From: Adineta vaga
Lineage: Eukaryota; Animalia; Rotifera
Length of the DNA: 64,000 nt
Direction: 5' to 3'
Assembly: GCA_021613535.1 (NCBI GenBank)
Contig: CP075493.1
Coordinates: forward strand, 10,141,179-10,205,178
Positions 677-63,653 of this stretch are shown piece after piece. The position numbers were made by a program, and so were the translations under genes. The notes beneath the pieces were generated by a model, which searched no databases, was not told where the DNA came from, and worked only from the letters and a program-made list of their open reading frames with translations. Position 1 is the first letter of the stretch. Every line of letters begins with the position of its first letter.

Positions 677-1670
677 TTAACGAAAATATCCCTCTACTGT
701 CCAAACACGATTATTAGTTGTAATTCGTTTATGTCGATATATTGCAAATGAACCACGAAATGAAGCGTTAGTGGCAGCATATAAGATTGGAAATAGTACA
801 GATTTCAATATGAGAATATAATAAGTAATTTGTAATGTACGCTGAATTGTTTTTGTATTGAGAAACGTAATTAAAACTCGAACACTTATCCATGGTAAAC
901 AAAGACATAGAAATGCTAAACTTAAAATTAAAACATGCCGTGTCATTTTCTTCTGTTCTACATAATGTTTACGATCGATTGAGTCAAGTCCTCTTGGTCT
1001 TTGTTGACATAGATGATGGGCAAGTAGAATCATTCCTATGAAAATACATAAAAGTGGAAATGAATAAATAACACCAATTTCGGTATAAGCCATCCATGGT
1101 GGATGATAAATTGAAGTTGTATACGTTGTGCAATACGATGTAATATTTGTTGTTGATGAAGTCATTGTTAAAAGATAATTTGATGAATTGATCATAAATG
1201 GTATTCCGTAAAAAAGAAATGAAGCAATCCATGTTGTAATCAATAATATGATTATATAACGACGACGAATATTTTTCGATAATTGTTTTAAATCATATAA
1301 ACGAACATATATCATAAATACAATACTATAGATAGTACAAGCCAAAGCACATGATTCACCTATAGCTAATGCTGTACATAATCTTGATGTTAATGGATTT
1401 CCATAAGCACTAACAAAACGCATTGGAAGAACAAAACTTCCAATAAATAGATCGATAAATGCTATACCTAAGATAAACATATTTGACCAATGTTTTCCAT
1501 CTGCACGAACAATATATGTTATAAATACACAAATCTAAAAGTTGATCTTAATAAGTCTGAAATATTCGATCGAATTCAAAACTTACATTTCCAATAATAA
1601 TTGCAGCAATAAATGCTAATAAAGCAAGTTTTTCCGGTATGGATGATGAATCTTCGTATTCTACTGCCAT
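677..1670 (-). CDS. Rhodopsin-like 7TM G-protein-coupled receptor. Two coding exons (1670..1587 and 1534..677), about 313 aa.
   Basis: ATG at 1670-1668 (MAVEYEDSSSIPEKLALLAFIAAIIIGN). gtaagt donor as revcomp of 1581-1586; ttttag acceptor at 1535-1540; phase consistent. Exon 2 shows seven hydrophobic helices, DRY-region-like 'LCQQRPRG' after TM3, 'CLCLPW' in TM6 and 'NASFRGSF' after TM7. Confidence 0.65.
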
Positions 1671-11756: not shown

Positions 11757-14089
11757 CTAATTTCTTGTTCGCTTTGATAATTTCTCAATTTCTTTACTCA
11801 ATGTGTCTACATTTTCTTTGAGTGTTAAATTCTTCAAAAGTGTATCTTCGAGAACGGATTGCAATTTTCCCATGATATCTAATGCTGTTTCCAATGTCAT
11901 TGGTGCTGATTGATCAAATATTTTATTTGTTGTTTGATGATTAGCAGTTGTTGCTGTTGTTGTTGCACGATTATATAATGTTGCCATCAATGATGTTGAT
12001 GAAGAATTTGATCGAGTTTTATTTGCTAATTGTTGTTTGACTAAATCAGATTCATTTGATGTGTACATAAAACTTTCTTCATTCATTGCATAGGATTGAA
12101 TGATTTTACGTTTATTCTGTAAATCTTGTGTGAGTAACTGTATATGATCGTTGAGAAATTCAATTTTTTCATTACGTCGTACAAGTAGTTTTTGTTGTTT
12201 TAATAGTTTATCGATTAATTTTTGACGATCAATATCAACAATACTGACGATAACTTCTTGTTCATCATCAGCAGGAACTAATTGTTGTTGATGTTGATGA
12301 CGACGATTATCCGATGAATGAGTTGATGTTTGATCAGGTGTTGAGTTGAGTATAGGAGGAGCCATATCACTTAATGAGCTATAAGAACCTGTTGGAGATC
12401 CACGACTTGATGAATTATCACCGAGATTTTCTTTAACTGGAATGCTTCTTGTTTGACTAAATTATTAGAAATATCAAGAAATCAAAATGTAATGTATATT
12501 TTTTATAAACAATTACCTAGTTTGTAAAGCAGGCGATGGCCCATCATCATTAGTTGCAGTTTTAGTTTTTTGTAATTGTTGCAATTGTTTAATTAAATCT
12601 TTCGTATTTGCTTGATGTTTCTTTTTTAATGTTTGTATTTCAACTAAACTATCATCATATTGTTTAACAATTTGTTCATGTGATTTATTTAAATTTTGTA
12701 ATTTCTCATCTAACTCTTTTATTTGATCTTTCACTGATTTTTCTATTGTTTCTAATTGTACAATTCGATTATGTTGTTCTTCATTAGTTTTTTTCATTTC
12801 TTCATGTTCTCCACTTATTTGTTGATGTAAATTTTGAAGTTGTTCATAATTTGTTTGTAGAATGGAGTTTTTCTCTGTTAACTTTTGTGTTAATTCAAGA
12901 TATTGATGTTCTTTTTCAAGTAATTGTCTTAAATCAGCATTATCAGCTAAGGTTTGATTATGGAGATTTTCGATTTGTTTTAATCGTGATATTTCAATGG
13001 AATCTTGTTCACGTGCACCTAATAGATCATCATATAATTTTTTTGTTGTTTCTTTTTCACGAATAGAATTTTGACGAAAATTTTCAATCACATTTTCTAA
13101 TGCAACACGATCTTCATCAGCCGATTTCAATTTTTCACGAAATTGATTATTTTCTTCTTGAAGATTTGTTAAGTTTGCTTTCAATGAATTATGTTCATTG
13201 AGTAAGGTATCGAAAGCTTGTGTACGTTCATCATCAGATGGAATGGCTTGAACAGCTAAATAAAAACAAGTTATTATAGAAAGAAGAAAATACAATGTGA
13301 ATATGTTAGTTCTTACTATCAGTAAGTTGTTTACATTGTAAACTGAGTTGTTCATTACGTTCATGTTGTTCATTGAGATCTTTTTTTAAACGTTCATTTG
13401 ATTCTCGTTGTTCTCTCAACTGTTGAGATTCTCCTTTCAAATGATTTAATGTTGATTTTAATGTTGCATCTATGGATAGATTTAATTCTTTAACTTTTTC
13501 TAAATCTTTTTTCGTTGTTGTTAATTCTCCTAATTTATTTTCATAGGCTTGTTGTAATTTCGTGTTCATTAATTTCAATTCAGCTAGTTTCATTTGTAAA
13601 TTATCTCTTTCTTTGAGTAAGTCATTGTTTTTCGTCGTTAAAATTTCACAACGTTTATCCGAATCTAACTTCGATTTTTCGGCTTGAGCATACCGCATAA
13701 CAGTCGATTGTTTCTCACGAGAATATTCGTCTTTCTGACGAGCCAATACCGTTTCATAATGTTGTTGACAAGCAACAAAACGTGCATTGAGTTCAGATAT
13801 TTCATTACTTTGATTTGTGACAATTGTTGAGAGACGAGCAATTTCAAGTTGATCGGGATTTATTGTAACTTCGGTTTCTGAAAAGAAAGAAAAGTGACTG
13901 ATTCGAAATACACATCGATGGACGTACAAATTAAGAATTCGTAAATAATTCGAAGAAAAAGAAATCTTTACCTGTCTTTTCCACTTCTAAATTGTCATTG
14001 GTTGGTTCATTCTCAGATGAATTATCTAACTTCATCTCAACTGATTGTTCTTCACCAGTAACTTCTTTTGAAGAATCACTTGCTTCCAT
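11757..14089 (-). CDS. Long coiled-coil protein (golgin/TMF-like); about 3 exons, about 700 aa.
   Basis: ATG at 14089 (MEASDSSKEVTGEEQSVEMKL...). The long heptad-rich exons 13306-13929 and 12513-13373 (LKERDNLQMKLAELKLMNTKLQQAYENKL...; EEMKKTNEEQHNRIVQLETIEKSVKDQIKELDEKLQNL...) and 11757-12365 are joined by short introns. No TM. Identity beyond 'coiled-coil' is not resolvable by eye. Confidence 0.55.
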
Positions 14090-27675: not shown

Positions 27676-30600
27676 ATGTCTCCATTAAGTGGCAAGACAT
27701 TTGTACTTGAGCTTGGTCGAGAAATTCGTTTTAAAGCTAAACAAGAACTAATTAACTATTTACGTGAACAAAATGCGCAGATTTCATATATATTAACTGC
27801 TAGCGTAGGTTTTTCTCTCTCGACATATCTGAATCATTATCGATTGAAACTTATTTTTACTCTAGACGGATTATGTTTTGGTTTCGAATGATATTGATAC
27901 ATATAAAACTCGTCGAGCAAAACAACTCGGCATACCATTGGTTAATGTTGATTATATTCATGAATGTCGTAAATCAGAAGTTGGAAAAGAACCATCTGAT
28001 ATTAAACGATTTATTGTGACATCAGCAGAAGATAAAGAAAACTTCTCAAAAACTGGTACTATACCAGTTTCAGGTTAATATACGAAGGTTTCTTTAGAAA
28101 ACTTATATTAATACTTCTTCTTCTTTTGCATAGGAGGAGGAAGTTCGTCAGGTAGTGTAATAAAACCTGTTAAATATGATGTATCAAAAATCAAAATATG
28201 GAATTCTGATGATGTGGAATTACCATGTTTCGATGAAATTACACATGCTGAAATTGGCAAATGGGCAATCTTCAAAGTAAAAATCTTGAGATAATCAATT
28301 GACTCTATTCATTTTCTTGCCGTTTTCAATAGGAAACAAACGATCATTCAGATATTCATTTTGCGCTTGAATTACAAATCATTTCCGAAGAATATTATCA
28401 TCAACAAACAAATAATGATTATCAATTTCGATTTCGTTATGAAAAACAAACAATTATCAGTTCGAAAGGTAAAACTTCATTAATTCAATATGCCTTCAGT
28501 CATGATATTAATGAATTACATCAATTATTTGCATCGTACTATTATCGTATTGCAACAATGCCAAGAATAACTCGAATTCGAGAATTATTACCCGATAAAT
28601 TAGGTTCCAAATTATTATTACGTGTAAGTTACTTTTCTTTCTTTTGCCATAGAAAAATATATTCTTCAATTTTAGTCATTATTTCTTCATCGAATTGATA
28701 CACAAATGCTCGATGATAATGTTTGTCAATTGATTGAATCACTTTGGATTGAATCGATTGGAGATTTAAATAAGATTCTTTCTGTTCAACCTGAATCGAT
28801 TGCATTGAAAACAGTATGACAATAGAAAAACAAATGTATTTGAATGTTTATTGTTTTTTTTTCTCAAATATTCTTTTAGATTATCGAGGCTGAAGCTGCT
28901 TTACTTGAAATCAAATCTGGTGGTGAATCAGCATCGGAAGCAGAAACTCGTTTCTATTCACTGATTCCTCATCAATATTCATATCTTATCGATCTTATAA
29001 CAAATCGACGTGCCTTAATAGATAAAATTGATTTATGTCAGGTATATCTTCTTTGCTTGTTGATCATTTCATTGGCTAAATTTTCAAAATTTAGATGTTA
29101 CGTGATATGCTTACGATCAATGAATTAACGAATTGGAATATTAAAGCATCAATTGAAGCAAAATATCGAGCATTAAAATGTCATATTGAAAGTATCGATA
29201 GAGATAGCCATGAATACTCGACCATTAATAATATGATTCATTCATCAACAGATTCGTACGTATTTTTGAATGATTAGAACTCTTTTGAAAAGTATTTGAG
29301 ATTCTTATAGGAATGAAAAAGTCATTGTTCATCACATCTATAGTGTTGCAAAACAAATAGATGCATTGAATTTTCGCTCAACACTTTTTAATCAGAAACA
29401 ACTTTTTCATGGATCGAAATATAATAATTTTCTTGGTATTCTCTCACGGTAAATCAATTTAATAAAAGTTCTTTCCAAACATTCATATTTTTTTTCTTGT
29501 TATTTAGTGGTTTAATGCTACCAAAACTAGTTGTAGATGATCTAGGAGTGGCACGTACTGATTTTGGATGTTTGGGATATGGAATTTACTTTTCGGATTC
29601 TGTTTCAACATCTTTAAAATATACAACATCAAGTACAACTTGCCCTGGTCGACGCCTATTATGTATATCTCAAGTAGCATTAGGAGAATCAGCAAAATAT
29701 TATTCATATGCAACGAATTTAACTCAACCACCAGAAAATTGCCATAGTACACATGGAGTAAAGAAGACCAATGAAAATAATTCGAAATTTTTCGTAAGAA
29801 ATTTCCTAGTTTTTATTTCGATAAATTGAAATTATTTAGGATGATGAATATGTAATCTATAATCTTGATCAACAACGTTTACTCTACATTGTTGAAGTTT
29901 CATGGCAACCACATGATGTTATTGATCAACCATTGAAACTATTACCAATTATTCGTGATCATTCAACAAAACAGTTAACGAGTTCGAAAAACGAAAGTAA
30001 TTGCAAAATTTTACAATTCACTCTTCATTAATATAAATCTTTAACTGCATTTTTAGTGGATATACCATCATCTATCGAAGATGAAGTAATTCAAGTAGCA
30101 GAACAGGATTATGGTTTAGTTTGTCCATCATCAGGTCAATTAGTGCCATTGAAAGCATTTCATATTCGCGCTCAACTTGTTGATGTAACTGGTGAAGTAT
30201 GTTTAATTACATTGCTCCTTCTTTCAATCAATATTATCTATAAATATTTGTTAGGTAGTACTTTATCAAGTATATCATAATACAAGTTCAGTTCCAATCG
30301 AAGCTAAATATGTGTTTCCATTGGAAGAAAATTGTTCTGTGTGTGGTTTCGAAGCTCATATAAACAATAAAGTTATTAAGGGTGTTGTAAAAGAAAAAGA
30401 ACAAGCGAAACGTGAATATCGTGAAGCAATCGAAAAAGGTCATGGTGCATATTTAATGCATCAAGAACAACCTGAAGTTTTCAGTGTATCTGTCGGTAAT
30501 TTACCAGCAAATTGTGAAGTGATTATCAAGATTACTTATGTTGCAGAATTATCAATTGAAAATAATGATATTATCTTTCGTTTTCCAGCAAAAGTAGCTT

Positions 30601-32560
30601 CATGGCAATCGAAACAAGCTTTAGAAGCAAAAGATCAAACAATTCTTCCATCGATTAATCTTGAACAAGATAATTCGTCAATGAAATCCGTTGAATTTAG
30701 TTTGAAAACATCTATTCGTATGCCATACGAAATTAGTAAATTATTCTCTCCGACGCATCGTCTTCGACGGAAAGTAACCGATTGTTTAGCCATGATTGAA
30801 CTCGTTGATAATGTTCTATTAGAAAAAGATTTTATTCTTTCTATAACATTAAAAAGTATAAATTTACCACGAATGTTAAATGAAACATATGTTGTCTCGG
30901 ATGAAAACAATAATATCGAATTAAATGATGAACAATCTCAAGCATGTATGTTAACATTTTATCCGAAATTTGAAATGACAAATAATATCAATGAATTTGT
31001 GGAAGTCGTTTTTATTATTGATGTATCAAATTCAATGGATGGTAATCATGTTCAACAAGCAAAACAATTAGCACATTTATTTTTAACAAATATGAACAAT
31101 AATGATGGAAATATTTATTTTAATATTGTTACCTTTGGATCAGGTAAGATCGGATGAAGTGAGTTTGATTAATTTTCTTTTCGTTCTTTTAGATAATGAT
31201 GAATGTTTTCCTATCTCATCACCAAATACAAAAGAAAATATTGATAAAGCAAAGCATTTCATTTTGGTTTGTATTATCCTATCAGTTCTTTTGTTCTTGA
31301 AGAAAATCTTCTCTTTTGTAAATTATAGCATTCACTTGATCATCGTGGTAATACTGATCTTTTCTCTGTTCTTCGTCAATATTCTCTCCTTCCATCTCCA
31401 TGTAAACTTGGTCGACAATTTATTCTTCTTTCTGATGGACATATCAATGATTTGAATTCAATTATAACTTTACTAGAAAATCAACCATCTATGGCACATG
31501 ATCGATTCTTTACATGTTCAATTAGTGATACATCAAATAAACATCAATTAAAACAATTAACTAATGGAGCACATGGTGGCGGTTTAGCAACTGTATTTGA
31601 TTCAAACTATCGTTCAAAATGGAAATCGAAAGTTCTTCTCATTCTTGAACATATTCGTCAACCATGTGTAACAAATATATCAATTGATTGGCATGGAAAT
31701 CTTGATAATCAACAAGTTAAATTTACCAATCAAGCACCAAAAATGATTCGATCCTTATTTAATGGTATGCGTTTAACTGTCTATCGATTTATTCAAAATT
31801 GTCATAAAGCAACATTGACAGCAATGATTAATGATCAAGAATTTGTTACAACTGTATTCAGTAATAAAATGACAGAAACACGAGGAACAATTTTACATTG
31901 TTTAACGGCACGTGCAATTATTCATGATTATGAAAATGGTATATTGCATGTAGATGAAAGTGAAAATGAACTGATGAAAAAACAATATAAACAAGATTTA
32001 ATTGACTTGAGTATAAAATATTCTGTTGTAAGTTCATTTACAAGCTTTGTGGCTATTGAAGAACGTGATGGACAAGCACTTGAGCCAGGTAGAGTTTTAA
32101 TTTCAGATTAAAATAAGATTGAAAAACTTTTCTTTCTTTTTCTTTTCTTTTCTTTTCTTTTCTTTATTAGGTGTTCGCTTACTGGATGTGATGCTTGAAC
32201 ATGATATTGATTTATTGCCATATATTGGTTGGGATGGTGATCGATCACAGATTCAAATAATTAAAGAAAAATTACTGGATGCAAAACATTTATTTGATAG
32301 TGCATCGATATCAAATAAGATTCAACTAACAACTGAATATGAAAAACTTTGTCAAAATATATCTTATCGTTCTGGTGGCGATGCAAAATATGATTTAATG
32401 TTGGCAATTATTGAAACGTACAGAACGATGCTAAAAGAAAATAATAAAGCATTAGAATTAGAAGAAAAAATGCAGCTTGGTAAAATTGAATTGTTTTTTA
32501 TTATGTATTTAGTCGAATTGATTTTGTATTCATAGAACTATTGACTGAAATAACAAATGC
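27676..32560 (+). CDS. Vault poly(ADP-ribose) polymerase (PARP4/vPARP)-like gene: BRCT - PARP catalytic - VIT - vWA; 15 exons or more.
   Basis: Exons 27676-28078: BRCT-like (GKTFVLELG...; ...GIPLVNVDYIHEC). Exons 29300-29830: PARP catalytic core with the H-Y-E triad (LFHGSKYNNFLGILSRG; GYGIYFSDSVSTSLKY; DDEYVIYNLDQQRLLYIVEV). Exon 30312-30600: VIT domain (KGVVKEKEQAKREYREAIEKGHGAYLMHQEQPEVFSVSVGNLPANCEVIIKITYVAEL). Exons 30990-31700: vWA (EVVFIIDVSNSMDG...IVTFGSG...QFILLSDGHINDLN). This domain order is specific to PARP4 among PARPs. Confidence 0.75.
32140..32166. repeat. (CTTTT)n pentanucleotide microsatellite inside a PARP4-like intron
   Basis: cttttcttttcttttcttttctttt read directly. Confidence 0.85.
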
Positions 32561-32945
32561 AACGGCTGATGAAAGAAAGATATTGGAAAAACGTTTGGAA
32601 GAAGTTAACGCACGTATTAATACAGCTGAATCGTTAGTTAAATTTGTAATAGGAGACAAATTTTAGAAATTTTGATTCTTGTTTTAGGGAAAGCCAAGAC
32701 GAAGGTGCAAGTAGCGAGGACATCGATAGTTCTCAAGATTCCTGCGACGAAGAAGTAAACTGTAGTAATATTCTTCTTCGGACTGTAAGTTATTTATCAA
32801 AGTATTGAAAAAACTTTCTGAAACTAAATAACTGTCATTTCTTTCTATGAAAAGTGTTCAATGGGTGGTGACGATTCATGTATGGATAGTGCATTTGCAA
32901 ATATTATTCTAAATACTTTGTGTTGTTGTATATTTTATAGATTCA

Positions 32946-35900
32946 ATGGTGGATTGCGATATAGACTATCCTCTTGATTTTGAAGTTTCCTCTACAGCTT
33001 CTAAGCCAGCTATGAATCCATATAAATCAAAAGGCACAGCCATTGCTTTAAGTTCGTCTCATGATGAATCTGAAGGATCTGATGATATGGGTTTTGGCTT
33101 ATTTGATGACGGCGTACCTGCATCATATTCACCAGTTGTATCGAACAAATTGCGCTCATCAATGATAGACGATAAGAAAGATACAGAAAAAATTGCGGCG
33201 GCTGCAAAGATACCTCAAATGCTCGAAACTATGAGAGAATACGAAGATGATGAAGACGAAGCGGACGATTTTGGTTTTGATTTGTTTGGCGATTATTCTT
33301 CGTCATCACCAGCTGCTACAGTGAATCTTATAGAAAAAGAGGAACATAGTAAACGAAGCACGAGTTTAGCGAAAAGACAATCACCACCAAACGTACAAGT
33401 AACTCCCATCAGAGATTTACTTGAAGAAACTAAAGATCTTCTTAAATCTAATTTAAATAAGATTTTAGATAGAAGTAAGTATACTTTGAAACACATTTTT
33501 CTTTATTTATATTTGTAAATTTATTATTATATTCAATAATAGGTGACATGCTTTCTTCTCTGTCCATAAACGATGAACGAGCCAGTCCAAAGAAACGCAA
33601 GGAAGTATCAAAAAAGGAATCTAAACCAGTACCTTCTGATTCAGCTGTTTTTTCAAACTTGTCACATACATCCCATACGTCTCAAATACCAACAACACAA
33701 AGCTTCAGTTTTTCTAATCTACATTCACAACCACAACAGCAGCAGCAGCAACATCTGAAACAGCAAGAATCTTCGATAGATGGTGATAAGTGCCTCATAA
33801 CGCCGGCATTGTTTGATTTTACAGGCAGCAGTCTTTCGGCGAACAGTGCAGATTTCATATCTGCAACGGCATCCGCACCCTCATTTTCATTTTCGAACAC
33901 TGCGTTCAACAACTATTATCAGAGTGATGTATTGCCAGACTTTGGTATTTCAACTCTGCCTCACCCTAGCATGCCATCCTTTACGTTTGGTGCGCCTCAA
34001 TTTAACAACAATACGTGCAGTGATCCATTCTCTACATCGGCTGGCACTCTTTCGGCAAGTACAAATATGGGCTTTAATACTGGACCACCACCACCACCTC
34101 CTCCTATGGCTGCTGGATTTTTTGGTAGCACACCACCTAGTTCCAATTCTTTGTTTCAACCAACCACTGCTAGTGGCATGTCATACAATCCTCTGTTGCC
34201 AGATGCGATGCTTCAACAAGTACTGCTACCAGCACAACCTCCTCCTCCTATGGCTGCTGGTTTCTTTGGCAGTACTATGTCGCCAGGTGCGGTTTTTCAA
34301 CAACTACCACTACCACCACCACCACCACCTCCTCCTCCTATGGCTGCTGGTTTCTTTGGCAGCACTACATCTAGTTCCAATTCTTTTTATCAACCAACTA
34401 TTGCTACTGGCATGTCATATAGTCATATGCCACCAGGTGCTATGCCTCAACAAGTACTACTACCACCACCACCACCACCACCTCTTCCTGCTCCTCCACG
34501 ACTTCAATCAATAAAAACAATAGCAAATGAATCGGGTTTCAAAATGTCATTAGCTGATGACGAGGAATCATCTCCGATGTATTCTGCGTTACAGCATAAA
34601 CAACGCTCGAGCATGGTGTCACGAGATAGAGGTCGTGGAGTAGTTTTCGGAGGAAGATGCGCAACTGATGGAGCTGAAGTATTAAGTGGGAAAAAATCAG
34701 AGATCATTAAAGAAATATCTGTAAATGATTGTGCTCGATATTGTGACGTATGTGTAGACAAAATAACATTTAAATCTTATACAAAATACTTTTCTTATTG
34801 TAGACACGTTCCGACGAAGCCTCTAATGCACCAGTAAAATCTGCAACATCAGACTATACAGAAGACTACAATATATTTAGTAAAAAGAAATCGAGTTCCA
34901 AACGGTACGAATTTTAGAAAGACAAAATACCATTCATGTTCACTAAAATGGAGCTATTAAATTTATTTTAGTGCACCCGAGAAGAAACCAGTGACCAAAT
35001 ATGTTGACGATTGTCTGTACGATCTTTTACTACTTGATGTTACACCACTTGGTTTAGGTATTGAAGATGTGAATGGTGAAATGTGTACAATTATTGAACG
35101 CAATCGTACAATTCCAACGAAATCAAACGTTTATTCTATATTTACCAATGCTTATGCTTATCAGACAACAGCTACTATACGTATTTTTCATGGTCAACAT
35201 AAATTAACAAAATATAATGTTAGTAAAATACTTACACAATTGAAATCGAATTGAAATAATTTTATTTTGTTTTAGATATTTCTTGGTGAACTTATTCTTA
35301 AAGATTTAACACCAAATTTTGCTTCACAAACATTACAAATATCAATTGTTATGGATGTTGCTAATAGTTTCCTACAAGTCAATGCGGAAGAACCACGATC
35401 AGGAGCTAAAGCTATGATTAAAATTAGTGCATCAGATTGTAAGAATCCATTAACCAATATGTATTCAAAATAAATCGTATGTATTTAAATTTATTATAGA
35501 TTCACTTAGTGCAACCGAAATTGAACGACATATTACATATGTCGAAAGTGATCCTAACTATAGAGCTGTAGATTTTAACGATGCACAAAAAAATAATCGT
35601 CAATACAAGGTCGGTACCAGCTTTCAGAAAACAAATTCATTCTAAATCTCGATTATTTTAGTTGAAAGGTGATACAGAAAGTACGGCCATTCGTTTTACA
35701 GGTAATATAGAAAGTTCGAACGATGTTTTCAATTTTGATCGACCAAAAACTATTCAATTAATTTCAACAACTCTAAATGAAATTAAAAAAATACAATTAC
35801 CAAATGGATCGTTCGATATCAATGAAGATTTTACTAAATTATTTTCAATTCCGATGAAAAATTTTGATGAACTTAAAAAATACTTATGTTCACAAGGTTT

Positions 35901-36327
35901 TAATTCATTTGGTAAGAATGAATAAAAAATGATAAAATAATCTAGAAGAAGAATCTTTTCTTTTAGCATTAAATGTACAACAAGATATTATACATCTCAT
36001 TGCAACAGGTATTGTTCTTCTACAATTGTTATTACAAGTACCCGTATCGGATAGAAAAGGATATTTAGTTCCATTCGATAGTGAACAATTAAAAGTAAGA
36101 AACGAAATTCTGTTGTTTGTTTTTTCTTTCGATTGATTGATTTGATTTCTTTTCAGACGATTTTTCATTGTCATTTACCGAAAGTTTTGATAGAAAATGT
36201 TAATAAAGCAATTGATTTTTATGAACAAAAACGTTTACGCTGTGGAATATATTGTGAACAATTAGAATTGAAATATTCATCATGGGAAAAATTGATTCAA
36301 TACGGAATTTTTCAAATCGAAAATTGA
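32946..36327 (+). CDS. Composite ORF region downstream of, and possibly continuous with, the PARP4-like gene: acidic ribosomal-stalk-P-like motifs, polyproline repeats, HSP70 substrate-binding-domain-like module, conserved C-terminal region.
   Basis: Exon 32946-33476 contains DESEGSDDMGFGLFDDG and DDEDEADDFGFDLFGD. Exon 33541-34790 has three repeats of P(7-11)MAAGFFGST. Exons 34975-35240 / 35279-35450 / 35500-35610 encode LLLLDVTPLGLGIEDVNGEMCTIIERNRTIPTKSNVYSIFT...IRIFHGQ...IFLGELILKDLTP...LQISIVMDVANSFLQVNA...YSLSATEIERHITYVESD, collinear with the HSP70 SBD-beta and start of the lid (LLLDVTPLSLGIET.GGVMT.LI.RNTTIPTK...VYEGER...LLG.FEL.GIPPAP...I.V.FDID.NGIL.V.A...LSKEEIERMV.EAE). All junctions were hand-checked and are in phase. 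Terminal exons 35650-35925, 35960-36100 and 36150-36327 end ...LIQYGIFQIEN*. Confidence 0.5.
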
Positions 36328-36983: not shown

Positions 36984-37526
36984 ATGCAAGCTACCGCCGG
37001 TATCCAAAAACTTAAAGGTACTTGGGAATACGTTGATGGTGAACATTTCGATGATTACATGAAAGAAATCGGTGTCGGTTTCGCTCTTCGTCAATCAGCT
37101 AAATTAATTAAACCAAAATTGATCATTCAAGAAAATGGAGGTAAATGGTCACTCAAAAGTGAATCAACCCTTAAGACAGCTTCATATGAATTTACACCTG
37201 GCACTGAATTCGATGAAACTCGTCTCGATGGTGAAAACTGTAAAGTTAGTTCAACTAAAATCTTGGAAAAACTTATCTTTTTCATCTGTCTGTTTATTTA
37301 GTCCATAATCAAATTTGAAAATGATAAATGGGTACACACAATGCGCGATAAAAATGGTAAAGAATCGACAGTTACACGATGGGTTGATGATCTAGGTCAA
37401 CATCAAGTTGTAAGAGAAAAAAAACGATTTTTTTTCCTTCTGAAAGTTGAACTTTATTTTTTCCTCTTATAGGACATGAAAGCTGGCAGTGTTACAGCTC
37501 GCCGTTGGTACAAACGTGTTGATTAA
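36984..37526 (+). CDS. Cytosolic fatty-acid-binding protein (FABP / iLBP lipocalin family); 3 exons, about 137 aa.
   Basis: MQATAGIQKLKGTWEYVDGEHFDDYMKEIGVGFALRQSAKLIKPKLIIQENGGKWSLKSESTLKTASYEFTPGTEFDETRLDGENCKV | SIIKFENDKWVHTMRDKNGKESTVTRWVDDLGQHQV | DMKAGSVTARRWYKRVD*. The G-x-W signature, beta-barrel periodicity and ...R.Y.R C-terminus are typical of FABPs. GT/AG introns at 37250-37299 and 37393-37472. Confidence 0.75.
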
Positions 37527-62066: not shown

Positions 62067-63653
62067 TTAATGTTGTTGCACATATTTATCAATTAGCATT
62101 TTCAAATTTTTATTCGAGTAAATTTGTGTGTTTTTTATCGAAATATTCATCATTGGACTTGTTTGTTTTTTTGTAATCCATTCTTCTATAGCTTTTCGTT
62201 CATACGTATAACCATCGCATACACATACTGGATCTGTCATTAATTCATGTGTTATTGGACATAAGAATTCATTTGGTATCGTTGCTTGATCAGTATCAGC
62301 TGATTTGGAATTTTGTTCGTTTTTTTTCGTTGAAATTTGTTGTACAAATAGTTTATGTCTCAATGAGCTAAGTTCATTCAATAACTTTTCATTTCTATTG
62401 AATAAATCTAATAATTCACTATCAGATTTTGACAATAAATCATTTCCTGTTAAATTTAACTTTGTTTTGACATTAAATTGTTCGAGCCATTGATGTACCA
62501 TTTCATTAGTCCATTGATCAATTGGATGTATTTTAAATTGATAATTTTGTGATTTCTTCTCTTCTCTATCTTCGATATCATTTTCATTATCACAATAATC
62601 GATTTTCCATATATTCACCATACGATCATTCGAACCTGATGCTAGATATTGGCCATCTAATGAAAAAGAACAACATGTAACATAACGCGCATGTGCATCA
62701 AATTGATATACAAGATGACCAGTTTCATAATTCCAAATAACAATCGTTTTATCACCTGAACCACTTGCTAAATAATGTTTAATACCAAATGAAACACACA
62801 TAACAGCACACGAATGCTTTTTTAAAGTTCGAATATGTGTTAGTTGATGTTTCGATGATGATGAGCAATGCCAAATTTTTACACAATTATCATTACCACC
62901 CGACGCAATCAGATAGGGTGGATGATGATGATGATGATGATGACTTTCAGTGGATGAAGGAGAAAGAACATCAACACATGTTACACCTAAATCATGTGCT
63001 TCACGTTCAAAATGAATATGACCAGTAAATGAAGAATCAACAGTCCATAGTTTAAGATCACCATAAAATGAACCAGATATAAGTAAATTTGAAAAGAATC
63101 GCAAGGCTACAATCGATGCCGAATGACCAACAAAAGTTTTAACTGGTCGCGAAGATATAGCAGTTATATCCCATAAATTTATTAATTCATCATCACCAGC
63201 TAAAAATCAAATATTGAATTCTTTTTCTTTCGTATGTGACTAAAAAATAAATAGTTAACCTGTTGCTAATAGTACACCATCCAATGAAAATTGACAAACA
63301 CGAATGGGAGAACCACTATCATGTTTATATTCTTTTAATACACTGATTGTTGTTAAATCCCATACAAGGCAAGTTCCATCAGTGGAAACAGATGCCATAT
63401 ATTTTGTTGTTGAATCATTTTTCTCATTGAGAATAGGTGAAAAAGCAAGGCAATGTACTTGATATGTATGTCGCGTTAGTGTTGTTGATGATTGATCATT
63501 TAAATTCCATAGTCGAACTGTTTTATCAGATGAACATGAAGCAAGTAATGGTGAAACTGAATGAGTCGGTGAAAATATAACAGTATTTACATCCGATGTA
63601 TGTCCACGTAATGTCTGAACTAATCGAATGGATACTGGCGAAACGTCACTCAT
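62067..63653 (-). CDS. WD40-repeat + C-terminal U-box protein (WDSUB1-like E3 ubiquitin ligase); 2 exons (63653..63255, about 63196..62067).
   Basis: WD40 blades throughout (GHTSDVNTVIFSP...VRLWNL; ...GTCLVWDL; ...IVIWNYETG; ...NDRMVNIWKI). C-terminal U-box EFLCPITHELMTDPVCVCDGYTYERKAIEEWI. An internal His7 run HHHHHHHPPY is encoded by (ATG)n/(CAT)n at about 62923-62945. Confidence 0.7.

What the first reader, a model, noticed from the sequence alone, without database searches (positions are those of the whole stretch)
32946..33480. Two copies of the ribosomal-stalk P-protein C-terminal motif (DDMGFGLFD) embedded in a non-ribosomal acidic exon
The exon encodes ...DESEGSDDMGFGLFDDG... and, about 75 aa later, ...DDEDEADDFGFDLFGD.... 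The first is essentially the invariant C-terminal tail of ribosomal P0/P1/P2 (EESDDDMGFGLFD). That tail recruits translational GTPases and is the docking site for ribosome-inactivating proteins. Finding it duplicated and internal in a large non-ribosomal protein, apparently downstream of or fused to a vault-PARP gene, is unusual. It could represent a stalk mimic (factor sequestration or docking) or an exon captured from a P-protein gene.
Basis: seen in the sequence. Interest (0 to 1): 0.65.

Follow-up and report, generated by a model that had tools for sequence, protein, structure and literature searches.

The report
Ribosomal-stalk-tail motifs inside vault PARP
One exon of a rotifer vault-PARP (PARP4) gene carries two copies of a short docking motif nearly identical to the tail of the ribosomal stalk proteins, and the same motif occurs in PARP4 of bivalves and social amoebae, which suggests an undescribed link between vault PARP and whatever proteins read the stalk tail.

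Summary
Window 32941-33474 (+) is exon 19 of a 26-exon, 2365-aa PARP4 (vault PARP) orthologue of a bdelloid rotifer. Its domain order is BRCT, PARP, VIT, VWA, helical domain, acidic linker, Pro/FG-rich region, HSP70 substrate-binding domain, MINT-like C-terminus. The exon encodes DDMGFGLFD (33081-33107) and DDFGFDLFGDY (33264-33296).

These two motifs are the only conserved islands in an otherwise fast-diverging, disordered linker across seven rotifer lineages. The same motif, with consensus EESD[DE]DMGF[GD]LF[GD]D[YG], occurs in 1-4 copies in PARP4 of bivalves (Magallana, Tegillarca) and four dictyostelids. I did not find it in vertebrate, echinoderm, tunicate, cnidarian or sponge PARP4.

A profile built only from the PARP4 motifs finds ribosomal P0/P1/P2 C-termini as its 28 best PDB hits. 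Pfam's Ribosomal_60s model scores the Dictyostelium purpureum PARP4 above its curated cutoff.

So this is neither chance nor a recent exon capture. It is an old, selected short linear motif of PARP4 that copies the P-stalk tail. The most likely function (inferred, untested) is docking of stalk-tail readers such as translational GTPases or GCN2 onto PARP4/vault. I found no paper that describes it.

The parts
27676..36327 (+). PARP4 (vault PARP) orthologue: 26 exons, 2365 codons plus stop
   Evidence: All introns are GT-AG and 46-138 nt long, giving a single ORF. Exon order is collinear with Rotaria loci L001-L004. Pfam finds BRCT, PARP_reg, PARP, VIT and VWA.
32941..33474 (+). Exon 19: acidic, disordered linker carrying both motifs
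   Evidence: Splice sites were read. The equivalent region of orthologue P0002 has AF2 pLDDT of about 25 and no secondary structure.
33060..33080 (+). Acidic/Ser lead-in HDESEGS of motif 1, comparable to the EESEES part of P tails
   Evidence: HMMER aligns DES.EGSDDMGFGLFD with EESEESDDDMGFGLFD of P1. The EG-x-DMGF pattern is shared by rotifer orthologues.
33081..33107 (+). Motif 1, DDMGFGLFD (flavour A, ...LFDD): P-stalk-tail-like short linear motif
33264..33296 (+). Motif 2, DDFGFDLFGDY (flavour B, ...LFGDY)
   Evidence: The LFGDY ending is shared with dictyostelid PARP4 copies.
32855..32879 (+). Inferred 25-nt mini-exon linking exon 17 to exon 19 in frame (uncertain)
   Evidence: In-frame alternatives exist: a single 152-179-nt intron from donors 32762, 32765 or 32789 to acceptor 32940. 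Transcript data are needed.
29206..29899 (+). PARP catalytic domain. H-Y-E triad candidates are H444 (29408), Y484 (within 29581-29592) and E555 (within 29843-29860).
   Evidence: Pfam PF00644, E 8.7e-25. The triad was read by eye against the PARP4 consensus of alignment A3.
30149..31577 (+). VIT and VWA domains. The VWA has a DxSxS MIDAS motif, DVSNS, at 31020-31034.
   Evidence: Pfam PF08487 E 5e-36 and PF13768/PF00092.
32173..32700 (+). Helical domain after VWA, related to the C-terminal half of the 14-3-3-like domain of dictyostelid PARP4
   Evidence: AF2 pLDDT is about 80 in orthologue P0002. jackhmmer links it to the 14-3-3 regions of P0087, P0091 and P0112, which Pfam identifies as 14-3-3.
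33587..33604 (+). PKKRKE, resembling an SV40-type nuclear localisation signal, just after the acidic exon
   Evidence: Read in the sequence. Not tested.
34085..34366 (+). Three PPPPPPPMAAGFFGST repeats in a Pro/FG-rich low-complexity region
   Evidence: TRF period 90, 2 copies, 80% match. Translation.
34988..35667 (+). HSP70 substrate-binding domain (beta sandwich plus start of the lid; no ATPase domain), exons 21-24
   Evidence: PDB phmmer hits Hsc70/DnaK SBD at E 4e-18. Pfam PF00012 covers profile positions 382-567.
35662..36324 (+). C-terminal domain homologous to the MVP-interaction (MINT) domain of PARP4
   Evidence: hhalign against the C-terminal 200 aa of 21 PARP4s gives probability 97.3%, E 2.5e-11 over 125 columns.

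Best explanation
Window 32941-33474 is exon 19 of a bdelloid-rotifer PARP4 (vault PARP) gene. It encodes part of the long disordered linker between the VWA/helical region and the C-terminal MINT-like vault-anchoring domain. The linker carries two copies of an old, selected short linear motif: an acidic (often Ser-containing) run followed by [MFL]-G-F-x-L-F-[DG]-D. This reproduces the C-terminal tail of ribosomal stalk proteins P0/P1/P2.

Shown here: gene structure, family membership, disorder, conservation, phyletic spread, and specific similarity to P tails.

Inferred mechanism: the motifs sit on a flexible tether, like stalk tails, and dock into the same hydrophobic-plus-basic grooves that read the stalk tail. 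Candidate readers are the translational GTPases eEF2, eEF1A, eIF5B and eRF3, ABCE1 and GCN2. Docking would bring these proteins to PARP4, and through the MINT-like domain to the vault interior. The outcome would be ADP-ribosylation or sequestration.

The Asp at +2 after LF could stand in for the free C-terminal carboxylate that an internal copy lacks. The two flavours, ...LFD[DN] and ...LFGD[YF], may have different preferred partners.
For: Gene and family:
- 26-exon single ORF.
- Pfam finds BRCT, PARP, VIT and VWA.
- MINT-like C-terminus, hhalign 97.3%.
- Synteny in Rotaria loci.

Selection:
- Across six rotifer orthologues the exon scores 10-15 (9-mer best-match BLOSUM) everywhere except two peaks: 40.3 at DMGFGLFDD and 34.5 at DDFGFDLFG.
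- Orthologous copies appear.

Age:
- Motif HMM hits of at least 9 bits (shuffle maximum 6.6) occur in Magallana gigas and Tegillarca granosa PARP4, in four dictyostelid PARP4s (up to 4 copies), and in three unnamed eukaryotic PARP4s.

Specific P-tail likeness:
- A profile of 23 PARP4 motifs finds 28 P0/P1/P2 sequences as its best PDB hits, always at their extreme C-termini (E 9e-5 to 0.11). The next hit is at E 0.59.
- Pfam Ribosomal_60s scores D. purpureum PARP4 at 43.7 bits (cutoff 28.1) and Cavenderia PARP4 at 25.7 bits.
- For the window exon, Ribosomal_60s is the best-scoring of only two Pfam families that match at E up to 10 (19 bits, E 0.0021, profile positions 68-88 of 88).

Disorder:
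- AF2 pLDDT is about 25 over the motif region of P0002, while the neighbouring domains reach about 80.

Consensus:
- D at -6 in 21 of 23, G at -4 in 20 of 23, F at -3 in 21 of 23, L at -1 in 22 of 23, F at 0 in 23 of 23, D at +2 in 16 of 23.

Established knowledge:
- MGFGLFD is the partner-binding short linear motif of the stalk. It binds translational GTPases, GCN2 and ribosome-inactivating proteins, and it is preceded by a CK2-phosphorylated acidic element (PMC11624264; PMC5086656).
Against: - No binding partner was tested or modelled.
- The motif is internal, whereas every known functional stalk tail is C-terminal.
- It is absent, by my scan of annotated proteins, from PARP4 of vertebrates, sea urchin, Styela, amphioxus, Hydra, sponge, nemertean, gastropod, leech, scorpion, unionid mussels and Pelomyxa. 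It is therefore not needed for core PARP4 or vault function.
- The conserved GD[YF] extension of flavour B is not part of P tails and hints at specificity of its own.
- The window's CK2-type serine context (SEGSDD) is weaker than EESDDD.
- No paper in the searched library links PARP4 or vaults with stalk clients.
Confidence: 0.4

Rival explanations
1. Same conserved short linear motif, but its reader is a PARP4- or vault-specific surface rather than a stalk client. Candidates are PARP4's own 14-3-3-like/helical domain, its VWA MIDAS site, the fused HSP70 substrate-binding domain, MVP or TEP1. The resemblance to P tails would then be convergent: an acidic patch plus a short amphipathic hydrophobic core.
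For: - Every motif-bearing PARP4 examined also has the helical/14-3-3-like domain, except P0069 and P0147, whose only reported match is the first roughly 115 positions of the profile, upstream of the helical domain, and which got no significant match. Dictyostelids have a full 14-3-3 domain.
- The VWA has an intact DxSxS MIDAS motif that typically binds an acidic ligand residue.
- Rotifer and oyster PARP4 both place an HSP70 SBD downstream of the motif.
- The alternating hydrophobic pattern M-G-F-G-L-F suits an extended peptide in a chaperone cleft (from my own knowledge, not tested).
Against: - AF2 of P0002 (VWA, helical domain and both motifs in one chain) left the motif region undocked at pLDDT of about 25. 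The alignment was shallow, so this is weak evidence.
- Sea urchin, amphioxus and Biomphalaria PARP4 keep the helical domain without the motif.
- Dictyostelids have the motif without an SBD.
- Convergence on a 13-residue consensus that includes two glycines and the acidic/Ser lead-in is a lot to ask of chance.
Confidence: 0.3
2. Flavour B (…LFGD[YF]…) is an FGDF-type ligand of the NTF2-like domain of G3BP. This is the same type of motif as the duplicated FGDF motifs of alphavirus nsP3 and of USP10. It would link PARP4 to stress-granule/RNP biology.
For: - FGD[YF] follows the conserved L in 10 of 30 listed copies. Window motif 2 is one of them. One unnamed protein (P0097) and R. sordida P0172 have exactly FGDF.
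- nsP3 also pairs an ADP-ribose-handling domain with duplicated motifs in a disordered region (my own knowledge).
- FGDF facts come from PMC4450067.
Against: - Both Phe residues are reported as essential (PMC4450067). Most PARP4 copies have Tyr at the second position, and whether Tyr is tolerated is unknown.
- The hydrophobic residue two positions before the first Phe (L/I/Y in nsP3 and USP10) is D or G here.
- Flavour A copies lack the motif altogether.
- The strongly conserved D-M-G-F part upstream would be unexplained.
Confidence: 0.1
3. The exon, or its motif, was captured recently from a ribosomal P-protein gene in the rotifer lineage.
For: - Near identity of motif 1 to the P tail.
- In Cavenderia the Pfam match extends over profile positions 48-88, including hinge-like Ala/Ser/Glu sequence. 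In D. purpureum one copy reads KKEKKEESHDDIGFGLFD. An ancient capture from a P gene therefore cannot be excluded.
Against: - The motif is present in PARP4 of bivalves and Amoebozoa, with the same LFGDY extension as in rotifers.
- In the window only 18-21 residues match the P-protein model and none of the N-terminal domain does.
- The two copies share little DNA beyond the motif codons.
- There is no P-protein gene elsewhere in the window.
Confidence: 0.03
4. Chance D/F/G low-complexity run in non-coding or intronic sequence.
For: The region is compositionally biased (acidic), and no transcript data were available.
Against: - The exon is open and framed by canonical splice sites that keep a 2365-aa ORF.
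- Motif scores exceed all 1880 shuffles.
- The motifs are conserved across at least seven rotifer lineages and three other clades.
Confidence: 0.01

Closest known systems
C-terminal tail (CTD) of eukaryotic ribosomal stalk proteins uL10/P0, P1, P2 (…EESEESDDDMGFGLFD)
   Same: - The grammar is the same over about 13-16 residues: an acidic, Ser-containing run, then D-M-G-F-G-L-F-D.
- Both are displayed on a disordered tether and present in several copies.
- Profiles cross-recognise each other.
   Different: - The PARP4 copies are internal, not at the free C-terminus.
- They are followed by D-[YG].
- A second flavour ends in LFGD[YF].
- There is no P-protein N-terminal dimerisation or rRNA-binding domain.
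- The host protein is an ADP-ribosyltransferase.
- Binding to translational GTPases, GCN2 or ribosome-inactivating proteins has not been shown.
PARP4 / vault PARP (vPARP clade, Clade 5 of Citarelli et al. 2010, PMC2964712)
   Same: BRCT, PARP catalytic domain in the middle, VIT, VWA, a long disordered Pro-rich linker and a MINT-like C-terminal domain. Animals plus Amoebozoa is the known range of the clade.
   Different: - The rotifer protein has an HSP70 substrate-binding domain inserted before the MINT-like domain. It also has a helical (14-3-3-related) domain and the stalk-like motifs.
- Vertebrate PARP4, the only version studied biochemically, lacks all three.
- Association with vaults in rotifers was not tested.
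FGDF motifs of alphavirus nsP3 and USP10 (ligands of the G3BP NTF2-like domain)
   Same: Duplicated, acidic, Phe-Gly-Asp-aromatic motifs in a disordered region (PMC4450067). Flavour B has F-G-D-[YF].
   Different: The second aromatic is usually Tyr, the upstream hydrophobic position differs, and the conserved DMGF half has no counterpart.
NSPA/ZZEF1, a non-ribosomal protein reported to carry P epitopes
   Same: A non-ribosomal protein with P-tail-like sequence, recognised by anti-P antibodies (PMC2150977).
   Different: NSPA has only two separate fragments, DDLG and GLFE, more than 2000 residues apart. The PARP4 copies are complete, contiguous tails.

Membership tests
PARP4 / vault PARP | N-terminal BRCT domain | tested here: met
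   Pfam PF00533, aa 2-77, E 3.8e-6.
PARP4 / vault PARP | PARP catalytic domain in mid-protein with an H-Y-E triad | tested here: met
   Pfam PF00644, aa 395-572, E 8.7e-25. H444, Y484 and E555 were read by eye against the PARP4 consensus. Catalytic activity was not tested.
PARP4 / vault PARP | VIT followed by a VWA domain | tested here: met
   PF08487 aa 636-746, E 5e-36. PF13768/PF00092 aa 901-1055. MIDAS motif DVSNS is present.
PARP4 / vault PARP | C-terminal MVP-interaction (MINT) domain | tested here: met
   hhalign of rotifer C-terminal domains against the C-terminal 200 aa of 21 PARP4s, including named vertebrate PARP4: 97.3%, E 2.5e-11. Plain phmmer against the PDB found nothing.
PARP4 / vault PARP | Physical residence in vault particles (binding to MVP) | not testable with these tools
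   Needs biochemistry. I did not check whether rotifers have MVP.
Ribosomal P1/P2/P0 proteins (Pfam Ribosomal_60s, PF00428) | Whole-protein score above Pfam's gathering cutoff (28.1 bits) | tested here: not met
   The window exon scores 19.0 bits, E 0.0021. The D. purpureum PARP4 homologue does pass, at 43.7 bits summed over its four copies.
Ribosomal P1/P2/P0 proteins (Pfam Ribosomal_60s, PF00428) | N-terminal helical dimerisation domain and hinge | tested here: not met
   Only profile positions 68-88 of 88 are matched in the window.
Ribosomal P1/P2/P0 proteins (Pfam Ribosomal_60s, PF00428) | Tail at the extreme C-terminus | tested here: not met
   The motifs are at aa 1449-1457 and 1510-1520 of 2365.
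P-stalk-CTD-type short linear motif (functional class) | Acidic run followed by the hydrophobic core MGFGLF(D) | tested here: met
   Motif 1 is identical over DDMGFGLFD. The PARP4 motif profile finds only P tails in the PDB down to E 0.11.
P-stalk-CTD-type short linear motif (functional class) | Located in an intrinsically disordered, flexible segment | tested here: met
   AF2 pLDDT of about 25 and no secondary structure in the orthologous region of P0002. The flanks diverge rapidly.
P-stalk-CTD-type short linear motif (functional class) | CK2-type serine in the acidic element (S-D/E-D/E-D/E) | tested here: inconclusive
   Dictyostelid and bivalve copies read EESDEDMGF. The window has SEGSDDMGF, where position n+3 is Met. 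Motif 2 has no Ser.
P-stalk-CTD-type short linear motif (functional class) | Binds translational GTPases, GCN2 or ribosome-inactivating proteins | not testable with these tools
   No complex prediction or binding assay was available.
FGDF-type G3BP ligand | F-G-D-F core in which both Phe and the Gly are essential (PMC4450067) | tested here: not met
   Window motif 2 has F-G-D-Y and motif 1 has F-D-D-G. An exact FGDF occurs only in P0097 and P0172.
HSP70 (for the downstream domain, not the motif) | N-terminal actin-like ATPase domain plus substrate-binding domain | tested here: not met
   Only profile positions 382-567 (linker, SBD-beta, start of the lid) are present. No ATPase domain is found anywhere in the gene.

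The most novel reading that the evidence does not exclude
PARP4 of rotifers, bivalves and dictyostelids displays genuine stalk-tail mimics on a flexible tether. With them it captures stalk-tail readers (eEF2/eEF1A-class GTPases or GCN2) and brings them to an ADP-ribosyltransferase that is anchored inside the vault. This would give the vault particle a direct, testable link to translation control.

A variant reading is a decoy. Abundant stalk-tail copies would soak up ribosome-inactivating toxins (Shiga-like toxins, RIPs) met by bacterivores and filter feeders.
Probability: 0.3. Interest if true: 0.85.

Novelty: new variant of a known kind. Interest (0 to 1): 0.66.

Why it matters
The function of vaults and of PARP4 has been unclear since the 1980s-1990s. 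The stalk tail is known only as a ribosomal element.

A selected, multi-copy stalk-tail copy inside PARP4, shared by Amoebozoa and spiralian animals, would be the first cellular non-ribosomal carrier of this motif that I am aware of. It yields a concrete experiment: peptide pull-downs, and LF-to-AA alleles in Dictyostelium, which has vaults and genetics.

It also shows that vertebrate PARP4 is a stripped-down version of an ancestral protein. The non-vertebrate versions carried a 14-3-3-like domain, stalk-like motifs and, in spiralians, an HSP70 substrate-binding domain.

If the partner turns out not to be a stalk client, the motif still marks the main conserved docking site of the PARP4 linker.

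Tried and rejected
1. Chance or low complexity: rejected.

2. Rotifer-specific exon capture: rejected after finding the motif in bivalve and dictyostelid PARP4.

3. Motif replaces the MINT domain. My MINT HMM found no MINT-like domain in the non-rotifer motif carriers. Reading their C-termini showed short divergent MINT-like sequences, so I dropped the idea.

4. Strict co-occurrence of motif with the 14-3-3-like/helical domain or with the HSP70 SBD: not found.

5. Cis-docking onto VWA or the helical domain. AF2 of P0002 with a 28-sequence alignment left the motifs disordered. This is negative but weak evidence.

6. Docking into the HSP70 SBD. AF2 of the oyster motif-plus-SBD fragment as a single sequence gave pLDDT 39 and was uninformative.

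8. Motif-2 30-mer against the PDB: no hits.

9. Rotifer C-terminal domain against the PDB by phmmer: no hits. Homology to MINT needed profile-profile comparison.

10. Matches to several other linear-motif classes were checked by eye from memory: clathrin box, AP2 and GAE appendage motifs, LIR, FFAT, FxxLF and pSxxF. None fits. These are leads, not tests.

11. The DnaJ G/F-region DIF motif resembles GLDIFGDY. I noted it as an idea because of the fused SBD and did not pursue it.

12. Literature strings GFDLFG, GFGLFG and GFNLFG, and 'ribosomal stalk' with ADP-ribosylation and PARP: nothing relevant.
Full report
**1. What is in the sequence.**
The window is AT-rich (about 30% G+C) and eukaryotic, with short GT-AG introns. 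Its closest protein relatives are bdelloid rotifers, Rotaria and Didymodactylos.

On the + strand the ORF at 32946-33518 encodes ...SHDESEGSDDMGFGLFDDG... and, 61 residues later...DDEDEADDFGFDLFGDY.... The coding unit is an exon at 32941-33474, with acceptor AG at 32939-40 and donor GTAAGT at 33475. It splices in frame to the next exon at 33543.

A strict pattern for the motif occurs only at these two places in all six frames of the window.

**2. The gene.**
Chaining stop-free segments through canonical splice sites gives one 26-exon ORF at 27676-36327, 2365 aa long, with introns of 46-138 nt.

- Pfam finds BRCT (aa 2-77), a weak PARP regulatory domain, the PARP catalytic domain (395-572), VIT (636-746) and VWA (901-1055). 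This is the PARP4/vault-PARP architecture (PMC2964712).
- The last 182 aa are homologous to the C-terminal MVP-interaction (MINT) region of PARP4s, by hhalign at 97.3% probability, E 2.5e-11. MINT is defined in PMC12280208.
- Between VWA and the C-terminus lie, in order: a helical domain, the acidic exon of the finding, an SV40-like PKKRKE, a Pro/FG-rich region with three PPPPPPPMAAGFFGST repeats, and a complete HSP70 substrate-binding domain without an ATPase domain.
- The same order of parts is kept in Rotaria loci L001 and L003/L004. One Didymodactylos protein model, P0125, joins the helical domain, SBD and C-terminal domain. One Rotaria model, P0002, joins VWA, the helical domain and both motifs.

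One junction is unresolved. Exon 17 ends in phase 0 and exon 19 begins in phase 1. The link is therefore either a 25-nt mini-exon (32855-32879) or a single 152-179-nt intron from an alternative donor. Every option keeps both motifs in frame. No transcript data were available.

**3. Conservation within rotifers.**
Seven rotifer lineages carry two copies each in the equivalent exon. They are the window, P0001, P0002/L001, the paralogue P0006/L002-4, and the metagenomic contigs L005, L007 and L008/9. In the partial model P0001 only one copy is seen. Examples are DEEGDDMGYGLFDDD with ESDRDLGFNLFGDY, and DYEGADMGFGLFDDD with ESDEDFDFNLFGAG.

An alignment-free profile scored the best 9-mer BLOSUM match of the window exon in six orthologues. 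It stays at 10-15 everywhere except two peaks: 40.3 at DMGFGLFDD and 34.5 at DDFGFDLFG. This is the signature of a short linear motif under selection in a diverging disordered linker.

AlphaFold2 of P0002 supports disorder. VWA and the helical domain reach pLDDT of about 80, while the motif region is at about 25 with no secondary structure and no docking.

**4. The motif is much older than rotifers.**
An exhaustive profile search found 332 homologues. The long ones checked (20 by source name; all 65 aligning as PARP4-like) are 1700-2500-aa PARP4 proteins.

I scanned 94 PARP4-like sequences with an HMM built from the motif. The maximum in 1880 locally shuffled controls was 6.6 bits. Hits of 9-30 bits appear in the following:

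- Magallana gigas PARP4: SSDESDVDDLGFNLFGDDD.
- Tegillarca granosa: EESDEEDEDLEFGLFGDGE.
- Heterostelium album, Dictyostelium purpureum (four copies, e.g. EESDEDMGFDLFGDYDDKP), Synstelium polycarpum and Cavenderia fasciculata.
- Three unnamed eukaryotic PARP4s.

No hit appears in PARP4 of frogs, lungfish, sea urchin, Styela, amphioxus, Hydra, Sycon, a nemertean, Biomphalaria, a leech, a scorpion, unionid mussels or Pelomyxa. Exons missed in annotation cannot be excluded for these taxa.

The consensus is E-E-S-D-[DE]-D-M-G-F-[GD]-L-F-[GD]-D-[YG]. There are two flavours...LF[DN][DN]... and ...LFGD[YF]. Most proteins with two or more copies have one of each, in rotifers and amoebae alike.

**5. 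How specific is the likeness to the stalk tail?**

- Motif 1's 30-mer hits only P0/P1/P2 C-termini in the PDB, 22 of 22 hits.
- A profile built solely from 23 PARP4 motifs finds 28 P0/P1/P2 sequences as its best hits among 177,635 PDB sequences. Every hit is at the extreme C-terminus (E 9e-5 to 0.11), and the next hit is unrelated at E 0.59.
- Pfam's curated Ribosomal_60s model scores D. purpureum PARP4 at 43.7 bits (cutoff 28.1) and Cavenderia PARP4 at 25.7 bits over profile positions 48-88.
- For the window exon, Ribosomal_60s is the best-scoring of only two Pfam families that match at E up to 10. The score is 19 bits, E 0.0021, over profile positions 68-88 of 88.

The window protein fails membership of the P-protein family. 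It scores below the cutoff, has no N-terminal domain, and its motif is not C-terminal. Its motif nevertheless belongs to the same sequence class as the stalk tail.

**6. Mechanism.**
Established knowledge is as follows. MGFGLFD is the partner-binding element of the stalk, preceded by a CK2-phosphorylated acidic element. It binds translational GTPases as a helix and ribosome-inactivating proteins in extended or helical form, and it is linked to GCN2 (PMC11624264). In ricin A chain, GFGLFD enters a hydrophobic pocket and the DDD run adds affinity. In trichosanthin, basic residues read DDD and a pocket reads LF (PMC5086656).

My inference is that the PARP4 copies present the same determinants on a flexible tether, in 2-4 copies, and dock the same class of grooves. 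The frequent Asp at +2 (16 of 23) may substitute for the missing terminal carboxylate. Human PARP4 is anchored by MINT near the vault waist, with its disordered linkers in the lumen (PMC12280208). In vault-bearing species the motifs would therefore be displayed inside the particle. I put about 0.9 on 'selected PARP4 short linear motif of the stalk-tail class' and about 0.35-0.4 on 'reads out through stalk clients'.

**7. Rivals.**

- **(a) A PARP4- or vault-internal reader** (14-3-3-like/helical domain, VWA MIDAS, HSP70 SBD, MVP or TEP1). Co-occurrence is suggestive but not exclusive, and the one usable AF2 test was negative.
- **(b) A G3BP-type FGDF ligand for flavour B.** The match is only partial: Tyr replaces the second Phe and the upstream position differs.
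- **(c) Recent exon capture.** Rejected. An ancient capture from a P gene remains possible, given the longer Pfam match in Cavenderia and KKEKKEESHDDIGFGLFD in D. purpureum.
- **(d) Chance.** Rejected.

**8. Novelty.**
Full-text searches found the tail string only in ribosomal-P contexts, plus NSPA/ZZEF1, which has only split partial epitopes. They found no occurrence of the PARP4 variants and no link between stalk and PARP. The PARP4 structural and evolutionary papers I read do not mention the motif.

I rate it a new variant of a known kind: a known motif class in a new, conserved, non-ribosomal setting. Interest is moderate to high. It offers a concrete handle on the unexplained function of PARP4 and vaults. 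That is tempered by its absence from vertebrates and by the lack of any binding evidence.

Noticed in passing
window 34988-35667 (exons 21-24): A complete HSP70 substrate-binding domain (interdomain linker DLLLLDV, beta sandwich, start of the lid) with no ATPase domain is encoded inside the PARP4 gene, just before the MINT-like domain. Oyster PARP4s (Magallana K1PUC2 aa 1433-1532, and Saccostrea) and Didymodactylos have it too, so it is not a rotifer oddity or an assembly chimera.
   Followed up: partly
window 32173-32700; homologues P0087, P0091, P0110, P0112: Dictyostelid PARP4s contain a full-length 14-3-3 domain after VWA (Pfam E down to 2e-26). The rotifer helical domain aligns to its C-terminal half. 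Sea urchin, amphioxus and Biomphalaria PARP4 keep it, while vertebrates retain only the first 25-45 residues.
   Followed up: partly
window 33081-33107 vs 33264-33296, and homologues: The motif comes in two flavours, ...LF[DN][DN] and ...LFGD[YF]. Proteins with two or more copies usually have one of each, in rotifers and in amoebae. This suggests two related but distinct readers.
   Followed up: partly
window 33587-33604: PKKRKE, an SV40-type NLS-like basic cluster, lies immediately after the acidic exon.
   Followed up: no
window 34085-34366: Three copies of PPPPPPPMAAGFFGST sit in a Pro/FG-rich low-complexity stretch (TRF period 90). FSFSN and FTFGAP elements upstream give it an FG-nucleoporin-like look.
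   Followed up: no
window 32855-32879 and 32942-32960: The putative 25-nt mini-exon and the start of exon 19 share a 19-nt direct repeat (TTCAATGGGTGGTGACGAT / TTCAATGGTGGATTGCGAT). This may be a duplicated acceptor region or a pair of alternative exons.
   Followed up: partly
P0069 (Magallana gigas PARP4) aa 1260-1317: Pfam reports an actin N-terminal fragment (profile positions 2-54, E 1.7e-9) upstream of the stalk-like motif and SBD. It could be a remnant of an actin/HSP70-fold ATPase domain or an annotation chimera.
   Followed up: no
window 36984-37470 (+): A fatty-acid-binding-protein/lipocalin-like gene (…[26 protein letters not shown]…) lies directly downstream of PARP4.
   Followed up: no
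Rotaria proteins P0165-P0185: Rotifers carry many PARP4-like paralogues (PARP-VIT-VWA). Some are fused in annotation to EF-hand or coatomer-delta domains. At least one, R. magnacalcarata P0165, has lost recognisable motifs in its acidic linker.
   Followed up: no
window 62067-63653 (-): A WD40-repeat plus U-box-like gene (…[28 protein letters not shown]…). Elsewhere in the window there are a GPCR-like ORF at 677-1480 (-) and long coiled-coil ORFs at 11757-13929 (-).
   Followed up: no
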